From Escherichia phage AV116, in sequence record OR352946.1: a stretch of 64,000 bases of DNA, one strand, 5' to 3'. Shown here one piece after another: positions 17,676 to 55,949 of this stretch. The position numbers were made by a program, and so were the translations under genes. The notes beneath the pieces are model-generated. The model was not told the DNA's origin and did no database searches. It saw only the letters and a list, made by a program, of their open reading frames with translations. Position 1 is the first letter of the stretch. The number at the start of each line of letters is the position of its first letter.

Positions 17676-18067
17676 TACTTTTTAAAAGTTTTTTGCAAAA
17701 GTTTGATGATTTCGTCGACGTTGGTTTCATCTACGATACAATGGATTTTTGTTACACCTAAAGTTATACCTTCGTTAGTAGGTTGAGGCTTTACTAAATC
17801 TACTTCAATAAAGTATTTGAACTCGTCAGGATAAATCTCGAAATAAGTTTCAATTTCACCACCGGCAGAACATACAGTACCGTCTTCCATAGTTACACTT
17901 ACTACGTTTGACGTATCGCTATCATAATCAGGTTCCATTCCGTTTACAACAAAACTAGGCCCGTGGAGTTCAATCAATTTTAACATCTTAGCGTTATTGT
18001 GTGGTGCTTCTTGAACAAAGTCGTCTTTAAATAAAGGGTTAATGATATAAGATTTTCCGATTTCCAT
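17675..18067 (-). CDS. hypothetical protein (frd.2/frd.3 position)
   Basis: 130-aa ORF with early promoter at 18093..18125. Confidence 0.45.
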   Translation of the reverse strand: MEIGKSYIINPLFKDDFVQEAPHNNAKMLKLIELHGPSFVVNGMEPDYDSDTSNVVSVTMEDGTVCSAGGEIETYFEIYPDEFKYFIEVDLVKPQPTNEGITLGVTKIHCIVDETNVDEIIKLLQKTFKK

Positions 18068-31045: not shown

Positions 31046-31597
31046 ATGAAACTCTATCATTATTATTTTGACACTAAAGAATTTTACAAAGAAGAAAATT
31101 ATAAACCATTAAAAGGCGTAGGATTTCCGGCTCATTCAACACCAAAAAAACCTTTAGACCCTAAAGAAGGTTACGCTGTTGTATTTGACGAACGTGAACA
31201 AGAATGGGTATATATTGAAGACCATCGTGGAAAAACAGTATGGACTTATGATAAGCAAAAAATTGTTATTGACACTCCAGGTGCTCTTCAAAATGTTACT
31301 ACAGAAGAACCTGGTGAATTTGACATTTGGACCGACGACGGGTGGAAGGAAGATGAAGCGTATAAGCGGGTAGTTCAACGTGATAAGAAAATTCATGAAC
31401 TCTATAAATTATTCAGTGTTTTAAGTTCTCTTATTGATGCAGAGGTTGCTAATAGAGAAGAAAAACGAAAATTTAAAGAGCTCAAAAAATTCTTTGCCCT
31501 TTTAGAAAAACATGAACATCTTGGTGGTGAATTCCCTAAATTCCCTGACCTTGAAAACAAATCTATTTTCAAAGCGATTATAAATATCTTTAAGTAA
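31046..31597 (+). CDS. 38: tail fibre assembly chaperone gp38 (T4 type)
   Basis: 183 aa; MKLYHYYFDTKEFYKEENYKP... close match to recalled T4 gp38. Confidence 0.8.
   Translation: MKLYHYYFDTKEFYKEENYKPLKGVGFPAHSTPKKPLDPKEGYAVVFDEREQEWVYIEDHRGKTVWTYDKQKIVIDTPGALQNVTTEEPGEFDIWTDDGWKEDEAYKRVVQRDKKIHELYKLFSVLSSLIDAEVANREEKRKFKELKKFFALLEKHEHLGGEFPKFPDLENKSIFKAIINIFK
31579..31586 (+). promoter_or_regulatory. late promoter TATAAATA for holin gene t
   Basis: Exact TATAAATA about 20 nt upstream of the t ATG, inside the 3' end of gene 38. Confidence 0.6.
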
Positions 31598-31606
31598 GGA
31601 GGTATT

Positions 31607-32266
31607 ATGGCAACACCAAAAGTATCATTTTCACTTAGTGATATTCTATTTGGGTTGCTAGATCGTATTTTCAAAGATAACGCTACTGGAAAGGTTTTAA
31701 TGTCCCGAGTAGCGGTAATTATTCTTTTGTTCCTAATGGCACTAATATGGTACAAAGGAAGTATTTTGCTGGATTATTATGTAAGAGCTAAGTATGATAC
31801 TTATACCGAAATAATCCAAAAAGAACGAGCTTTACGTTTTGAATCTGCGGCTCTAGAACAACTGCAAATAGTTCATATCTCATCTGGTGCAGATTTTAGT
31901 GCTGTGTATTCTTTCAGACCTAAAAACTTAAATTATTTTGTCGACCTTATAGCTTATGAAGGCAAACTACCTAGCACAATTTCTGAAAAGTCCCTTGGCG
32001 GATTCCCAGTGGATAAAACGGCCAATGAATATATAATTCATTTAAGTGGCCGTCATTTCTCATCTAAATCAGAATTTGCATTTTTGCCTACAAAATCTAA
32101 GACTGCCGAACTTTCTTATATGTATAGTTGTCCATACTTTAATTTGGATAACATCTATGCTGGAACTGTGACGATGTATTGGTATAAGGGGAGTAATATA
32201 CTTGAGGAAGATCGCTTAGCGGCTATATGCAACCAAGCGATCCGAATACTAGGAAGGGCTAAATAA
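31607..32266 (+). CDS. t: holin (lysis/lysis-inhibition protein t)
   Basis: 219 aa; single N-terminal TM helix and long periplasmic domain; late promoter TATAAATA at 31579..31586. Confidence 0.85.
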   Translation: MATPKVSFSLSDILFGLLDRIFKDNATGKVLMSRVAVIILLFLMALIWYKGSILLDYYVRAKYDTYTEIIQKERALRFESAALEQLQIVHISSGADFSAVYSFRPKNLNYFVDLIAYEGKLPSTISEKSLGGFPVDKTANEYIIHLSGRHFSSKSEFAFLPTKSKTAELSYMYSCPYFNLDNIYAGTVTMYWYKGSNILEEDRLAAICNQAIRILGRAK

Positions 32267-53305: not shown

Positions 53306-53542
53306 TTAACCACTTACTGATGTAGGGGTAAACATTGCAGCGTTCTTAGTTTTCCAAGTTGCTGCATCAGAAACGACATCAGAATAAGCTGCCTTTTCTG
53401 ACGGAAAGATTTGGTAATGAGAATCTGCAATCCGATGTTCGTTTGAATAAATCTCAAACGGTACAGAAACTTCCATACCTTTGACTTCTTTGCCTTCACC
53501 AGCCGGACGTGTAAAGGTTTTGATATTAACGTAACCACCCAT
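53306..53542 (-). CDS. soc: small outer capsid protein Soc
   Basis: 78 aa; GYVNIKTF and YQIFPSEKAAYS blocks match recalled T4 Soc; TATAAATA late promoter at 53574..53581; terminator downstream. Confidence 0.8.
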   Translation of the reverse strand: MGGYVNIKTFTRPAGEGKEVKGMEVSVPFEIYSNEHRIADSHYQIFPSEKAAYSDVVSDAATWKTKNAAMFTPTSVSG

Positions 53543-53573: not shown

Positions 53574-53581
53574 TATTTATA
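53574..53581 (-). promoter_or_regulatory. late promoter TATAAATA upstream of soc
   Basis: Exact TATAAATA on the minus strand about 30 nt upstream of the soc ATG. Confidence 0.6.
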
Positions 53582-53587
53582 ACTTAA

Positions 53588-54109
53588 TCAGTAACCATTA
53601 TCCTGACGTTCAAAGTTGTGTTGGTTTTTCAAGTAGTAAAGTTTAAAGATTTCTTCAGCGGAAAGACCCAAACCTTGGAACATATTCAGAACAAAGTGGA
53701 GAATATCAATCATCTCGAATTTAATTTCAAGCTGGTCTTCAGGAGACAGTTCATCGATACGACGATTACGATATTCAGCATGTTGTGCTTTCCATGGCTT
53801 CCACACAGAGCTGGCAGCTTTTTCACCGTTGGACATACCACCGAGTGAAGTCAGCAGTTCACGGAATTCATCATCAATATAATCTTTCTGATTACGCAGC
53901 CAATCAACAACATCACCGGCAGTAGCCAATTCATCAGGATGTTTGTTATGTTCAGGCTTGTCATTTGCCAGACGAACCTGTAAAGATTTCTGCATATCAA
54001 GCATTACCTGCAGTGGGTCTTTATCTTCGTGAATCAGAGCATTAAAATAAGCTTCTTCTGCTTTATCAACACCAGAAATAAGTTGTGAACATTCGTTAAA
54101 GTGTGCCAT
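53588..54109 (-). CDS. 56: dCTP pyrophosphatase gp56 (MazG-like); start at MAHFNECSQL
   Basis: MAHFNECSQLISGVDKAEEAY...SPEDQLEIKFEMIDILHFVLNMF matches recalled T4 gp56. Confidence 0.8.
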   Translation of the reverse strand: MAHFNECSQLISGVDKAEEAYFNALIHEDKDPLQVMLDMQKSLQVRLANDKPEHNKHPDELATAGDVVDWLRNQKDYIDDEFRELLTSLGGMSNGEKAASSVWKPWKAQHAEYRNRRIDELSPEDQLEIKFEMIDILHFVLNMFQGLGLSAEEIFKLYYLKNQHNFERQDNGY

Positions 54110-54198
54110 TATTTTTCCTTTCAATTCAGTATAAGAGAGTTAATTCTAACATTAATTTTATAAAGCGTAATAAATAATAAGGTAACTAAGGAGATATT

Positions 54199-54396
54199 AT
54201 GTTTAAACTTCCATCGTTAATCAACGCTATTAAAGGCAATAAAAAGAAAACTGCTATCGCTGCAATAGTTGTAGGTGGCATTATTTCATGGAACTTCGGG
54301 ATTGCACCATTGTTAGTTGCCAATGGTATTATAGTTCCTTCTGTTCCATTGGATACTGTAGTTGATTTGGCCTTTGCTATTATAGGGCTTGTTTAA
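54199..54396 (+). CDS. small hydrophobic protein on the opposite strand between genes 56 and 61
   Basis: 65 codons; strong RBS TAAGGAGATATTATG; predicted TM segments (IAAIVVGGIISWNFGIAPLLVANGIIV). Confidence 0.4.
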   Translation: MFKLPSLINAIKGNKKKTAIAAIVVGGIISWNFGIAPLLVANGIIVPSVPLDTVVDLAFAIIGLV

Positions 54397-55415
54397 ATCT
54401 TCGAATAACGAGATAATCTCATTTTAGCATGCAACCCACTTGAAATATTCTGTTTCATATATTCTAAAATTTCTTGTGGTGTTGCATTTTCTTTCATTAC
54501 CATATCATTCACATCCTTTGAACTCCATGGAGCTCGGTCCCAGAACATGACACGTTCGCCTGCATCAACTAATCGCTTCATGCGAGCTATAGTATCCGGA
54601 TGCCTAGGTTCATTATCCATTACCCATACCCGACGTTCTTTAAATGGTACCACATCTAAATCTATCGAGCCGCCTGTAATAGCGATTGCATTGGGTATGA
54701 ATAAACTATCAATAGGGCCTTCCATTACCCAGACGTCCCCTTCCTTAACACGTTCAACACCATAAATTTTTGTTGCAGACTCAAACGCTTTAATAGTGAT
54801 ATATTTCTGAGGAGCATCTTTACGAAGTGCACGTCCTTGGAATGACTCGGCCTTCCCATCTTTATTAAAAATAGGAATAACTAAACGTGGTTCGGGAATC
54901 TCTTTCTTATACGTACCAGGTTGAATCTTGTTGACCAATTTGGGCCATTCTAATGTGAACCATAATCTGTTCCATGATTCTTTAGGAATACACCGAGACT
55001 TAACATATTTCACAATAGGATGCTCTTCAGGCAACTTGTCTAGACGAGAACAAGACGGCAAAGAATTTATAGTCTTTTTCTCCGGTTCTGGTTTATGTTC
55101 AGGAACCTTTTCAATCTTTGGTTCCATTCTAGCTTTTTCTTTACGAACTTCCATTAGATATTCGCGATAAAGCTCTTCATCATACTCTTTTAAGTATCCG
55201 GAAATTGTATTATGGTATTGACAGTTATAGCAATGTACATTACCAGGAGTACCGCCATAATACCAACCGCGAGCTTTCATTGCATCTGTCTGAGAGTCGC
55301 CACAAACTGGACATCGAAATGTTAATTTAAATGTGCTTGAATTATTGATTTGTCTAAAACGAGGTAGGTGAGAAAACGCACGATAAGCAAATTCATTATC
55401 TATCCATTCAGCCAT
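54393..55415 (-). CDS. 61: DNA primase gp61
   Basis: 340 aa; N-terminal zinc ribbon CPVCGDS...CYNC; close match to recalled T4 gp61. Confidence 0.9.
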   Translation of the reverse strand: MAEWIDNEFAYRAFSHLPRFRQINNSSTFKLTFRCPVCGDSQTDAMKARGWYYGGTPGNVHCYNCQYHNTISGYLKEYDEELYREYLMEVRKEKARMEPKIEKVPEHKPEPEKKTINSLPSCSRLDKLPEEHPIVKYVKSRCIPKESWNRLWFTLEWPKLVNKIQPGTYKKEIPEPRLVIPIFNKDGKAESFQGRALRKDAPQKYITIKAFESATKIYGVERVKEGDVWVMEGPIDSLFIPNAIAITGGSIDLDVVPFKERRVWVMDNEPRHPDTIARMKRLVDAGERVMFWDRAPWSSKDVNDMVMKENATPQEILEYMKQNISSGLHAKMRLSRYSKI

Positions 55416-55454: not shown

Positions 55455-55949
55455 TCACAACTTATTAATATTTACTTTAATTCGCTTTCTTTTCTTGGAA
55501 GGAATTTGTTCTGGACCTTTATTTACGACTGCACCTGTAGTAGTTCCTGATGCAATAGCTTGAGGGCTGCCACCTGAATCACCAGCAACCATATCCTCAA
55601 ATAAAGGGAGTTCTTTAAATATTTCTTTCTGTTGTTCTTCAGTAATGTTATAGCGTGAAGCTACAGCACTCCAAGCAGACATCATTGAGGCCATTCCATT
55701 AAGACCCGGAACAGTGCTCATCATTCGCTTCATTGAACGAACTGAAGCATGAAAAGGTGTATAAGCCGCTTTCTCTTCAGGAGTAGAAGGACGTTTAAGA
55801 ACACTTCCACGTTCATCGATGATTTTGGCTTCGTATGCTTTCCATTCGGTAAAAGGTTTTTGCATTAGTCGAATAAACTTATATGCATAAACAGAATCTA
55901 TTGCAGTGTTAATAATACCCATAGGTACCTCCTGAGTATATTTAATCAA
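55455..55949 (-). CDS. hypothetical protein (61.1 position)
   Basis: 164-aa ORF. Confidence 0.45.
   Translation of the reverse strand: MIKYTQEVPMGIINTAIDSVYAYKFIRLMQKPFTEWKAYEAKIIDERGSVLKRPSTPEEKAAYTPFHASVRSMKRMMSTVPGLNGMASMMSAWSAVASRYNITEEQQKEIFKELPLFEDMVAGDSGGSPQAIASGTTTGAVVNKGPEQIPSKKRKRIKVNINKL

What the first reader, a model, noticed from the sequence alone, without database searches (positions are those of the whole stretch)
54199..54396. Lone plus-strand small membrane-protein ORF with a strong RBS inside the minus-strand early region
Between genes 56 and 61 a 65-codon ORF reads on the opposite strand. It has a near-consensus Shine-Dalgarno (TAAGGAGATATTATG) and a hydrophobic, probably two-TM product. 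An AATAAATA element lies about 25 nt upstream, which is close to, but not exactly, the late promoter consensus. Its 3' end overlaps the stop of gene 61. It could be a late-expressed small membrane protein or an antisense regulator of 61/56.
Basis: seen in the sequence. Interest (0 to 1): 0.45.

Follow-up and report, generated by a model that had tools for sequence, protein, structure and literature searches.

The report
Conserved late small membrane-protein gene
The lone plus-strand ORF is a real, conserved gene of T4-type phages that has no annotation in the T4 RefSeq record NC_000866. It is most likely switched on late and makes a 65-residue inner-membrane protein that distantly resembles the membrane core of a known holin family, but its function is untested.

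Summary
At 54199-54396 (+) there is a 65-codon ORF with a TAAGGAG ribosome-binding site and an AATAAATA box 22 nt upstream of the ATG. It overlaps the 3' end of gene 61 by 4 nt. The window is an RB69-like Mosigvirus, and the ORF is RB69ORF029w (phrog_2024, function unknown).

Homologues sit in the same 56/61 slot and orientation in eight Tevenvirinae genera. T4 has one too, but NC_000866 does not annotate it (17738-17938). All 19 loci keep ATAAATA 12-26 nt upstream of the ATG plus a GGAGG-type SD. Within-clade dN/dS is 0.08-0.47, and W31, N32, P37 and G43 are invariant. A(-13) is the commonest natural variant of the T4 late promoter.

The product has a basic N-terminus, one robust transmembrane helix and a hydrophobic acidic C-terminal helix. 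Profile comparison links the family to the C-terminal membrane region of PF11351 (GTA-type 3TM holins): hhalign gives 90.6% probability and score 39.5, against shuffle controls of 10.5±2. The ORF fails Pfam's threshold, lacks the N-terminal ~70 residues and is not in a lysis cassette.

An antisense-regulator role is not supported. The gene is real and probably late. A lysis-accessory role is inferred only.

The parts
54169..54176 (+). AATAAATA, a T4-type late-promoter box (gp55-dependent type; the A(-13) variant of TATAAATA)
   Evidence: Sequence. It is one of only 16 ATAAATA sites in the window. ATAAATA is present 12-26 nt upstream of the ATG in all 19 homologous loci. The A(-13) variant occurs at 9 of 50 listed T4 late promoters (PMC2988020). 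Activity was not measured.
54182..54182 (+). Predicted transcription start, the 6th nt after the box (inferred, not mapped)
   Evidence: Inferred from the box position at -13..-6 stated in PMC1524935. This gives a leader of about 17 nt.
54187..54193 (+). Shine-Dalgarno TAAGGAG, 5 nt before the ATG
   Evidence: Sequence. A GGAG/GGAGG SD is conserved in all homologous loci.
54199..54396 (+). CDS of 65 aa (RB69ORF029w homologue, phrog_2024): a small inner-membrane protein
   Evidence: dN/dS is 0.08-0.47 within clades. W31, N32, P37 and G43 are invariant across the T4-type members.
54250..54321 (+). Codons 18-41: the main transmembrane helix, containing the invariant WN(F/L/Y)xxxP motif
   Evidence: Hydropathy analysis. 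AF2 helix 15-41 with pLDDT about 88-90. Aligns to the WxFLLxP helix of PF11351 holins.
54322..54348 (+). Codons 42-50: conserved Pro-rich loop (N/H)G..(V/L)P.VP
   Evidence: Aligns to the G..VP.LP.LD loop of PF11351 holins.
54349..54384 (+). Codons 51-62: C-terminal hydrophobic/acidic helix, either a second membrane helix or a periplasmic amphipathic helix
   Evidence: AF2 helix 51-62. It scores poorly as an independent TM, with summed Hessa dG about +6.5 to +11 kcal/mol across the nine representatives scored. Aligns to the last helix of PF11351 holins.
54135..54176 (-). Divergent MotA-type middle promoter for gene 56, back-to-back with the late box
   Evidence: Counterpart of RB69 Pm:16038 (score 21.6) in the supplement of PMC1524935. 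The sequence reads ...TACGCTTTA-12 nt-TAGAAT on the minus strand. Coordinates were transferred from RB69 by inference.
53588..54109 (-). Flanking gene 56 (dCTPase/dUTPase)
54393..55415 (-). Flanking gene 61 (DNA primase), convergent with the ORF, with a 4-nt 3' overlap

Best explanation
This is a genuine protein-coding gene of Tevenvirinae phages, the same gene as RB69ORF029w. T4 has it too, but its RefSeq record does not annotate it. It is most likely transcribed only late, by gp55-RNA polymerase from the AATAAATA box at 54169-54176. That start would give a leader of about 17 nt with a strong SD. The 65-residue product inserts into the inner membrane with its basic N-terminus in the cytoplasm and one firm TM helix (about residues 18-41). 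A short Pro-rich periplasmic loop follows, then a C-terminal hydrophobic/acidic helix that either re-enters the membrane as a hairpin or lies on its periplasmic face. The protein is a short-form remote relative of the last two hydrophobic helices of the PF11351 '3TM / GTA-type' holins. It lacks their N-terminal ~70 residues. These phages already lyse through the unrelated holin T, which is present in this window at 31607-32266. I therefore infer that the protein is an accessory membrane-active factor acting at the time of lysis, such as a lysis-timing modulator or an auxiliary holin/antiholin-like protein, and not an autonomous holin. Shown here: the ORF, its conservation, coding constraint, conserved promoter-type box and SD, membrane character and the profile similarity. 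Inferred: late transcription, topology and any lysis role. My rough sub-confidences are: real gene 0.95, late 0.85, membrane 0.9, homology to the PF11351 core 0.7, lysis-related role 0.35.
For: Anatomy is confirmed. The ORF is identical or near-identical in over 150 Mosigvirus records and about 50% identical in more than 500 Tequatrovirus records; 685 of 692 matching records cover at least 80% of it. The same slot between 56 and 61, and the same orientation, is seen in T4, RB69, JK45, CJ20, Mineola, Q7622, KIT01 and PM2, and in metagenomic T4-likes. Within-clade dN/dS is 0.08-0.47. W31, N32, P37 and G43 are invariant across the T4-type members; once the most remote relatives are added, only P37 stays strictly invariant, with N32 and G43 in at least 90%. 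ATAAATA plus GGAGG lies upstream in all 19 loci, although flanking sequence is unrelated between clades; the first base is A, G, C or T. Only 16 ATAAATA sites occur in the window, and other sites precede known late genes: soc, t and gene 36. A(-13) is the commonest natural late-promoter variant, and early/middle transcription uses only the other strand (PMC2988020). T at -13 is poorly conserved in T4-like phages (PMC1524935). Hydropathy and charge favour an N-in orientation. The AF2 model has pLDDT 81 with helices 4-13, 15-41 and 51-62. For the holin link: remote members hit PF11351 at E 0.03-0.1 and phrog_3427 'holin' at 5e-4. hhalign of family A4 against six bona fide PF11351 holins that sit in lysis cassettes (five directly next to an annotated endolysin or cell-wall hydrolase gene) gives probability 90.6% and score 39.5 over 56 columns; with T4-type members only it gives 56.7% and score 29.5. 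Column-shuffle controls average 10.5 with sd 2 and maximum 20.8, and reversed alignments score about 12. The holin HMM ranks family members as its seven best non-self hits among 1418 ORF segments. The 81-aa Pan1 'GTA-like holin' bridges both profiles (9.5e-8 and 1.5e-6). One remote member lies three genes upstream of a T4-type lysozyme.
Against: No expression data were found or generated. The window protein has no Pfam or NCBIfam hit, and the family HMM reaches full-length PF11351 holins only at noise level (E 0.008-0.04; an unrelated soluble ORF scores 0.044). It lacks the N-terminal third of PF11351 proteins. It is not next to an endolysin in T4-type phages. From established T4 genetics (my own knowledge), t-defective T4 does not lyse, so this protein cannot be a sufficient holin. 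Contexts of remote relatives are ambiguous, since they sit next to a pair of soluble basic proteins with weak 'minor tail protein' similarity. Nolan et al. did not predict a late promoter here in RB69. In Mineola and PM2 the nearest box is only 12-13 nt from the ATG, which would leave the SD at the very 5' end of the transcript.
Confidence: 0.45

Rival explanations
1. It is a real, late-made small inner-membrane protein, but its job is unrelated to lysis. Possibilities include late superinfection exclusion, a membrane step of assembly, or counter-defence. On this reading the PF11351 resemblance reflects only a shared membrane-hairpin ancestry or architecture.
For: All the evidence for a real gene, late expression and membrane location applies equally. 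The ORF is not in a lysis cassette in T4-type phages. In siphovirus-like contigs, remote relatives follow the tail-tip and endonuclease VII genes and precede two soluble proteins with weak 'minor tail' similarity. The lysis set of these phages is regarded as complete without it (own knowledge). The protein evolves faster than its neighbours: 52% identity to T4 against 72-74% for gp56 and gp61. That pattern is typical of host-interaction accessory genes.
Against: The only similarity to anything with an assigned function is to holins. One remote lineage has a lysozyme three genes downstream.
Confidence: 0.35
2. It is an autonomous second holin, able to trigger lysis with the phage endolysin.
For: Remote similarity to the PF11351 holin membrane core. 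A UniProt entry for a Tequatrovirus homologue is named 'Holin'. The size and hydrophobic character resemble small holins.
Against: T4 t mutants fail to lyse although this gene is present in T4 (own knowledge; T4 copy shown). The N-terminal third of PF11351 holins is missing. The Pfam threshold is not met. No endolysin gene is adjacent. The second helix scores poorly as a TM.
Confidence: 0.05
3. The functional product is an antisense RNA against gene 61, made late, and the ORF is incidental.
For: In the window, in T4 and in RB69, the ORF abuts gene 61 with no terminator between them, so a + strand transcript should read antisense into gene 61.
Against: Coding constraint and invariant residues are present in the + frame. 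A strong SD is conserved. The overlap is not conserved: CJ20 has a 118-nt spacer with a hairpin of -23.2 kcal/mol (z -6.8) plus a U-run, and Mineola has an 18-nt spacer with only a weak GC hairpin (-10.6 kcal/mol, z -0.89). There is no unusual RNA structure (z -0.78) and no meaningful Rfam match. The transcript cannot be antisense to gene 56, because it runs away from it.
Confidence: 0.04
4. It is a chance ORF in a promoter-bearing intergenic spacer and is not a gene.
For: The ORF is short. By my own estimate from the window's base composition, a 65-codon open frame has a chance probability of about 1.4% per frame. The T4 RefSeq does not annotate it. The region carries a minus-strand middle promoter. 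Two laboratory T4 derivatives carry frameshifts in it.
Against: The ORF is intact in about 99% of 692 phage records. It is conserved across eight genera with length kept at 63-69 aa, synonymous changes in excess, and invariant W, N, P and G residues. It forms a recognised family (phrog_2024, E 1.4e-26). The minus-strand antisense ORF is not conserved in T4.
Confidence: 0.02

Closest known systems
RB69ORF029w / PHROG phrog_2024 (conserved hypothetical protein of Tevenvirinae)
   Same: It is the same gene: 97% identical to RB69ORF029w, with a full-length match to phrog_2024 (E 1.4e-26), the same slot between genes 56 and 61, and the same strand. Nolan et al. 2006 listed it as a 'novel ORF' with a predicted TM at residues 21-41.
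   Different: Nothing differs structurally. What is added here: a T4 homologue exists but is unannotated in NC_000866, so the ORF is not 'novel to RB69'; a late-promoter-type box is conserved; and there is a remote link to a holin family.
PF11351 GTA_holin_3TM (holins of RcGTA-type and many marine and alphaproteobacterial phages)
   Same: Shared motif order over about 56 columns: W-x-F-x-x-x-P helix, G-x-x-(V/L)-P-x-(L/V)-P-x-(L/M)-(D/E) loop, and a final hydrophobic helix ending in (I/L)GL. hhalign gives 90.6% probability and score 39.5, far above shuffled controls.
   Different: It does not reach Pfam's gathering score. It is 65 aa against about 133-152 aa, and lacks the N-terminal hydrophobic segment, the long charged helix and the conserved GWRP motif. 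It lacks the basic C-terminal tail (RT.EK). It is not in a lysis cassette. Its phage uses holin T.
Pseudanabaena phage Pan1 / Dinoroseobacter phage R5C 81-aa 'GTA-like holin'
   Same: This is also a short form with the same architecture, and it matches both the family profile (1.5e-6) and the PF11351-type holin profile (9.5e-8).
   Different: It has a different phage lineage and context. It is also below Pfam's threshold (E 0.041), and its function is likewise untested.
T4 holin T with antiholins RI and RIII (the canonical lysis and lysis-inhibition system of these phages)
   Same: They are made late, are membrane-located, and are read from a TATAAATA-type promoter. The t gene in this window has a perfect box at 31579.
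   Different: No sequence relation was found. T is 219 aa with a large periplasmic domain (PF11031). The roles of T, RI and RIII are experimentally established (own knowledge), whereas this protein's role is not.
soc: a late gene embedded in the early region next door
   Same: It is a small late gene with its own late promoter inside a block of early and middle genes. soc is at 53306-53542 with TATAAATA at 53581, and Nolan's Pl:15279 in RB69 corresponds to it.
   Different: soc lies on the minus strand and encodes a soluble capsid decoration protein. The ORF here is on the plus strand and encodes a membrane protein.

Membership tests
phrog_2024 / RB69ORF029w family | Significant full-length match to the family profile | tested here: met
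   E 1.4e-26, residues 1-65 against profile positions 1-65 of 65. 97% identity to RB69ORF029w.
phrog_2024 / RB69ORF029w family | Conserved position between genes 56 (or dam) and 61, convergent with 61 | tested here: met
T4-type late gene (gp55-dependent) | TATAAATA-type box about one helical turn upstream of the transcription start, close to the gene | tested here: met
   AATAAATA at 54169-54176, which is the A(-13) variant present at 9 of 50 listed T4 late promoters. The ATAAATA core is conserved in 19 of 19 loci. This is a sequence criterion only.
T4-type late gene (gp55-dependent) | Transcript appears late and depends on gp55, gp33 and gp45 | not testable with these tools
   No expression data were available, and literature searches found none for this ORF.
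PF11351 GTA_holin_3TM | Score at or above Pfam's gathering threshold (24.8 bits) | tested here: not met
   The window protein has no Pfam hit at E up to 0.1. Remote family members reach only 13.6-15.3 bits.
PF11351 GTA_holin_3TM | Profile-level homology to the family's membrane core | tested here: met
   hhalign 90.6% probability, score 39.5. With T4-type members only: 56.7%, score 29.5. Shuffle null 10.5±2 with maximum 20.8; reversed about 12. Rank enrichment and the Pan1 bridge support it. The E-values are pairwise and not database-calibrated.
PF11351 GTA_holin_3TM | Full architecture: N-terminal hydrophobic segment, long charged helix, GWRP motif and two C-terminal hydrophobic helices (about 130-150 aa) | tested here: not met
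   The alignment covers only holin columns 75-137. The 65-aa protein starts just before the WxF helix.
PF11351 GTA_holin_3TM | Gene located in a lysis cassette next to an endolysin | tested here: not met
   It lies between dCTPase and primase. Of the six reference holins, five have an annotated endolysin or cell-wall hydrolase gene directly adjacent (ParMal1, ZRG1, MEP301, ct3Oc712) or one gene away (CRP-823, M15 peptidase); none is annotated near the Vibrio phage 1.208.B holin. One remote short-form relative is three genes from a lysozyme.
PF11351 GTA_holin_3TM | Hole formation or lysis activity | not testable with these tools
   This needs expression and complementation assays.
cis-antisense regulatory RNA | Conserved overlap with the target, no coding constraint, and conserved RNA structure | tested here: not met
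   The overlap with gene 61 is lost in CJ20 and Mineola; CJ20 carries a strong terminator hairpin in the spacer. dN/dS is below 0.5. Fold z-score is -0.78, and no Rfam family reaches its gathering score.

The most novel reading that the evidence does not exclude
T4-type phages, including T4 itself, carry a previously unstudied late gene for a truncated holin-family membrane hairpin. On this reading it works alongside the unrelated holin T, for example by tuning the lysis clock or lysis inhibition, or by pre-depolarising the membrane. That would mean the textbook T4 lysis system (T, E, RI, RIII and the spanins) is missing a component.
Probability: 0.25. Interest if true: 0.65.

Novelty: new variant of a known kind. 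Interest (0 to 1): 0.4.

Why it matters
T4 is one of the best-annotated genomes, yet its reference record has a 309-bp gap between dam and gene 61. That gap holds a gene conserved across at least eight genera of its relatives. Because T4 lacked the annotation, the RB69 copy was classified in 2006 as having no T4 counterpart. Recognising the gene corrects that. It also adds a late transcription unit inside the early region, placed back-to-back with a middle promoter. The remote link to a holin family gives a concrete hypothesis that can be tested with a simple T4 knockout. If the protein modulates lysis or lysis inhibition, a classical system would gain a new component. If it does not, this remains a routine small accessory membrane protein.

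Tried and rejected
- Pfam, NCBIfam and PDB: direct searches with the window protein found nothing.
- Viral fold search: it returned only family members, one of them named 'Holin' in UniProt.
- afdb50 fold library: not available.
- Word-indexed protein searches: these returned only family members, all unnamed or 'hypothetical', plus two obvious mis-namings. None carried PF11351.
- Exhaustive HMM search of 1.84 billion representatives: only 17 clusters, so the family is small.
- Family HMM against full-length PF11351 holins: hits are at noise level. An equally scoring hit in the window is a soluble ORF. I therefore rest the homology claim on the profile-profile result with its controls, on rank enrichment, and on the Pan1 bridge.
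- Context of remote relatives: the ~180-aa and ~106-aa neighbours are soluble and basic, not spanins, so a 'lysis cassette' reading of those loci was not adopted.
- Structured RNA or an Rfam family: rejected.
- Sigma-70 promoter and terminator scans around the ORF: uninformative.
- Literature searches: searches for ORF029w, T4 ribosome profiling, T4 transcription-start mapping and the phage OE5505 found nothing about this gene.
- Minus-strand 45-aa ORF inside the region: rejected, because it has a TTG start and is not conserved in T4.

Full report
**1. Observation**

An ATG at 54199 opens a 65-codon frame ending at TAA 54394-54396. It is preceded by TAAGGAG (54187-54193) with a 5-nt spacer. 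AATAAATA sits at 54169-54176, so its last base is 22 nt before the ATG. Gene 56 (dCTPase, 53588-54109) and gene 61 (primase, 54393-55415) lie on the minus strand on either side. The ORF overlaps the 3' end of gene 61 by 4 nt (TTAA).

**2. Identity of the window and the ORF**

The region is 99.9% identical to Escherichia phage AV118 and 97-98% identical to many RB69-like phages. In RB69 the ORF is annotated as RB69ORF029w, a hypothetical protein. It matches PHROG phrog_2024 (unknown function) end to end at E 1.4e-26. It has no Pfam or NCBIfam match.

Nolan et al. 2006 listed RB69ORF029w among ORFs without a T4 counterpart and gave it a predicted TM at residues 21-41. They predicted a strong MotA-type middle promoter (Pm:16038, minus strand) exactly here, but no late promoter (PMC1524935).

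**3. Conservation**

- tblastn finds the protein in 692 phage records, and 685 of them cover at least 80% of it.
- It occupies the same slot (between 56, or dam, and 61) on the same strand, convergent with 61, in eight genera:
  - T4 (Tequatrovirus)
  - RB69 and JK45 (Mosigvirus-like)
  - CJ20 (Gaprivervirus)
  - KIT01 (Dhakavirus)
  - Mineola (Jiaodavirus)
  - Q7622 (Kanagawavirus)
  - PM2 (Mosugukvirus)
  - metagenomic T4-likes
- T4 RefSeq NC_000866 has no feature in the 309-bp interval between dam and 61. A 66-aa homologue (52% identical) lies there at 17738-17938, with an AAAGGAGG SD and the same TTAA overlap with gene 61. RB69ORF029w is therefore not 'novel to RB69'. The T4 copy was simply never annotated.
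- The family is small: 119 clusters at 90% identity and only 17 representative clusters at 50% identity among 1.84 billion proteins. Members are 33-99 aa.

**4. Is it coding?**

- Within-clade comparisons give dN/dS of 0.08-0.47 in nine pairs.
- Length is held at 63-69 aa across genera.
- W31, N32, P37 and G43 are invariant and A39 and P47 nearly so, although overall identity falls to about 15-25%.
- The protein evolves faster than its neighbours: 52% identity to T4 against 72-74% for gp56 and gp61.
- The antisense 45-aa ORF is not conserved.
- The RNA is not unusually structured (z -0.78), and no Rfam family reaches its gathering score; the only hit at E up to 1 is a chance SNORD37 match in gene 56.

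I regard the gene as real.

**5. When is it expressed?**

This step is inferred, not measured.

- All 19 loci carry ATAAATA 12-26 nt upstream of the ATG plus a GGAG/GGAGG SD. This holds even where the surrounding sequence is unrelated, for example in Tequatrovirus genomes with and without dam. The preceding base is A, G, C or, in Q7622, T, which gives a perfect TATAAATA.
- In the 64-kb window ATAAATA occurs only 16 times on both strands. Other copies sit in front of known late genes: soc, holin t and tail-fibre gene 36.
- Geiduschek and Kassavetis report that 32 of the 50 listed T4 late promoters are perfect and 9 carry A at -13. [quoted passage not shown]
- Nolan et al. note that T(-13) is poorly conserved in T4 relatives.

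A plus-strand gene with this box is therefore most simply a late gene. The predicted start is near 54182, giving a leader of about 17 nt. The box is back-to-back with the minus-strand middle promoter of gene 56.

Two caveats apply. In Mineola and PM2 the proximal box is only 12-13 nt from the ATG, although Mineola has a second box further upstream. No transcript data for this ORF were found.

**6. The antisense idea**

A transcript from this promoter runs away from gene 56, so it cannot be antisense to it. In the window, T4 and RB69 it would read into gene 61, since no terminator was found. That arrangement is not conserved. CJ20 has a 118-nt spacer with a -23.2 kcal/mol hairpin (z -6.8) followed by a U-run. 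Mineola has an 18-nt spacer with only a weak GC hairpin (-10.6 kcal/mol, z -0.89). Antisense transcription of gene 61 late in infection is probably a by-product.

**7. The protein**

- The N-terminal 17 residues are basic, with net charge +2 to +7 in all but one of the representatives scored.
- Residues about 18-41 form the one robust TM segment.
- A conserved Pro-rich loop, (N/H/Q)G..(V/L)P.V, follows.
- The last ~15 residues are hydrophobic but carry one or two acidic residues and score poorly as an independent TM.
- AlphaFold2 with a 36-sequence alignment gives pLDDT 81 and helices 4-13, 15-41 and 51-62.

The topology is either N-in/C-out or a hairpin, so 'two-TM' is possible but not established.

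**8. Remote relationship to a holin family**

- Three distant family members hit Pfam PF11351 (GTA_holin_3TM) below threshold, always over profile positions about 66-117 of 123. One also hits phrog_3427 'holin' at 5e-4.
- I collected six phage holins of 133-152 aa that score 59-90 bits on PF11351. Five have an annotated endolysin or cell-wall hydrolase gene adjacent or one gene away.
- Profile-profile comparison of the family (A4) with these holins (A5) gives 90.6% probability and score 39.5 over 56 columns. With T4-type members only (A3) it gives 56.7% and score 29.5.
- 200 column shuffles average 10.5 (sd 2, maximum 20.8). Reversed alignments score about 12.
- The aligned motifs are:
  - W-x-F-x-x-x-P
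  - G-x-x-(V/L)-P-x-(L/V)-P-x-(L/M)-(D/E)
  - a final helix ending in (I/L)GL
- In a database of 1418 ORF segments, the holin HMM ranks family members as its seven best non-self hits.
- An 81-aa 'GTA-like holin' of cyanophage Pan1 is hit significantly by both profiles (9.5e-8 and 1.5e-6).
- The family HMM reaches the full-length holins only at noise level.

I conclude, with about 70% confidence, that this is a short-form relative of the last two hydrophobic helices of PF11351 holins. It is not a member by Pfam's criterion. It lacks the N-terminal ~70 residues and the basic C-tail, and it is not in a lysis cassette.

**9. Function**

The window carries the canonical holin t (31607-32266, PF11031 at 1.3e-90, perfect TATAAATA at 31579). 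From established T4 genetics (my own knowledge), t mutants do not lyse, so this protein is not a sufficient holin.

Contexts of the most remote relatives are mixed. One lineage has a T4-type lysozyme three genes downstream. All of the siphovirus-like contexts are followed by a pair of soluble basic proteins with weak 'minor tail protein' similarity.

Two laboratory T4 derivatives carry frameshifts in the ORF. This hints that the gene is dispensable in the laboratory, unless the frameshifts are sequencing errors.

My best reading is an accessory, late, membrane-active protein of holin ancestry that acts around lysis, for example in timing or modulation. The probability of a lysis-related role is about 0.35. 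A non-lysis membrane role is nearly as likely.

**10. Verdict**

The 'late small membrane protein' interpretation is supported comparatively, and the 'antisense regulator' interpretation is not. The gene was already known as a conserved hypothetical ORF. What is new here is the unannotated T4 copy, the conserved late-promoter-type box, and the remote link to the PF11351 holin core. Interest is moderate.

Noticed in passing
L002 3239-3439 (T4 NC_000866 17738-17938, + strand): T4 RefSeq has no annotated feature in the 309-bp dam-61 interval. The interval holds a 66-aa homologue of the window ORF, with an AAAGGAGG SD and a GATAAATA box.
   Followed up: yes
window 54135-54176 (-): This is the counterpart of RB69 Pm:16038, a high-scoring MotA-type middle promoter for gene 56. 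Its upstream edge overlaps the plus-strand AATAAATA box, so a middle and a late promoter sit back-to-back.
   Followed up: partly
window 53581 (-), upstream of soc 53306-53542: A perfect TATAAATA lies 31 nt upstream of the soc start codon. It matches Nolan's predicted RB69 late promoter Pl:15279.
   Followed up: partly
window 55455-55949 (-): A single 164-aa ORF (phrog_2086 plus phrog_1823) lies upstream of gene 61. JK45 also has one ORF here, but RB69 RefSeq splits it into gp61.1 and RB69ORF032c. This could be a frameshift or an annotation difference in RB69.
   Followed up: no
L033 (T4_ev240) and L034 (T4 clone T4_583L): Two laboratory-derived T4 genomes carry frameshifts in the ORF. T4_ev240 has a 1-nt deletion in an A-run. 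T4_583L has a 2-nt deletion plus a 4-nt deletion between the SD and the ATG. These hint at dispensability but may be sequencing errors.
   Followed up: partly
L004 2748-2800 (CJ20, Gaprivervirus): A strong hairpin (-23.2 kcal/mol, z -6.8) followed by a U-run lies in the 118-nt spacer between the ORF and gene 61. It also folds on the opposite strand (-16.4 kcal/mol, z -4.25) and looks like a bidirectional terminator. The simple terminator scan did not report it.
   Followed up: yes
L029 6001-7610; L032 6001-7089; L036 4001-5082; L035 2980-4213: In siphovirus-like or prophage contigs, remote family members always accompany a conserved pair of soluble basic proteins (~180 aa and ~106 aa) of unknown function. 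In L029 a T4-type lysozyme follows the pair.
   Followed up: partly
L019 2471-2716 (Pseudanabaena phage Pan1): An 81-aa protein annotated 'GTA-like holin' is itself below Pfam's PF11351 threshold (E 0.041). It matches both the short family and the full-length holin profile, so it acts as a bridging sequence.
   Followed up: yes
P0089, P0103: Some database entries for homologues carry evidently wrong names: 'DNA packaging ATPase' and 'dCTP pyrophosphatase'. One UniProt entry (A0A482MZV5) is named 'Holin'.
   Followed up: no
window 53588-55415 compared with T4 (L002): The window, like RB69, lacks dam and segF, which T4 has near gene 56 (segF beside 56, dam between 56 and 61). The gene order upstream of 61 also differs, with imm and imm.1 sitting near sp.
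   Followed up: no
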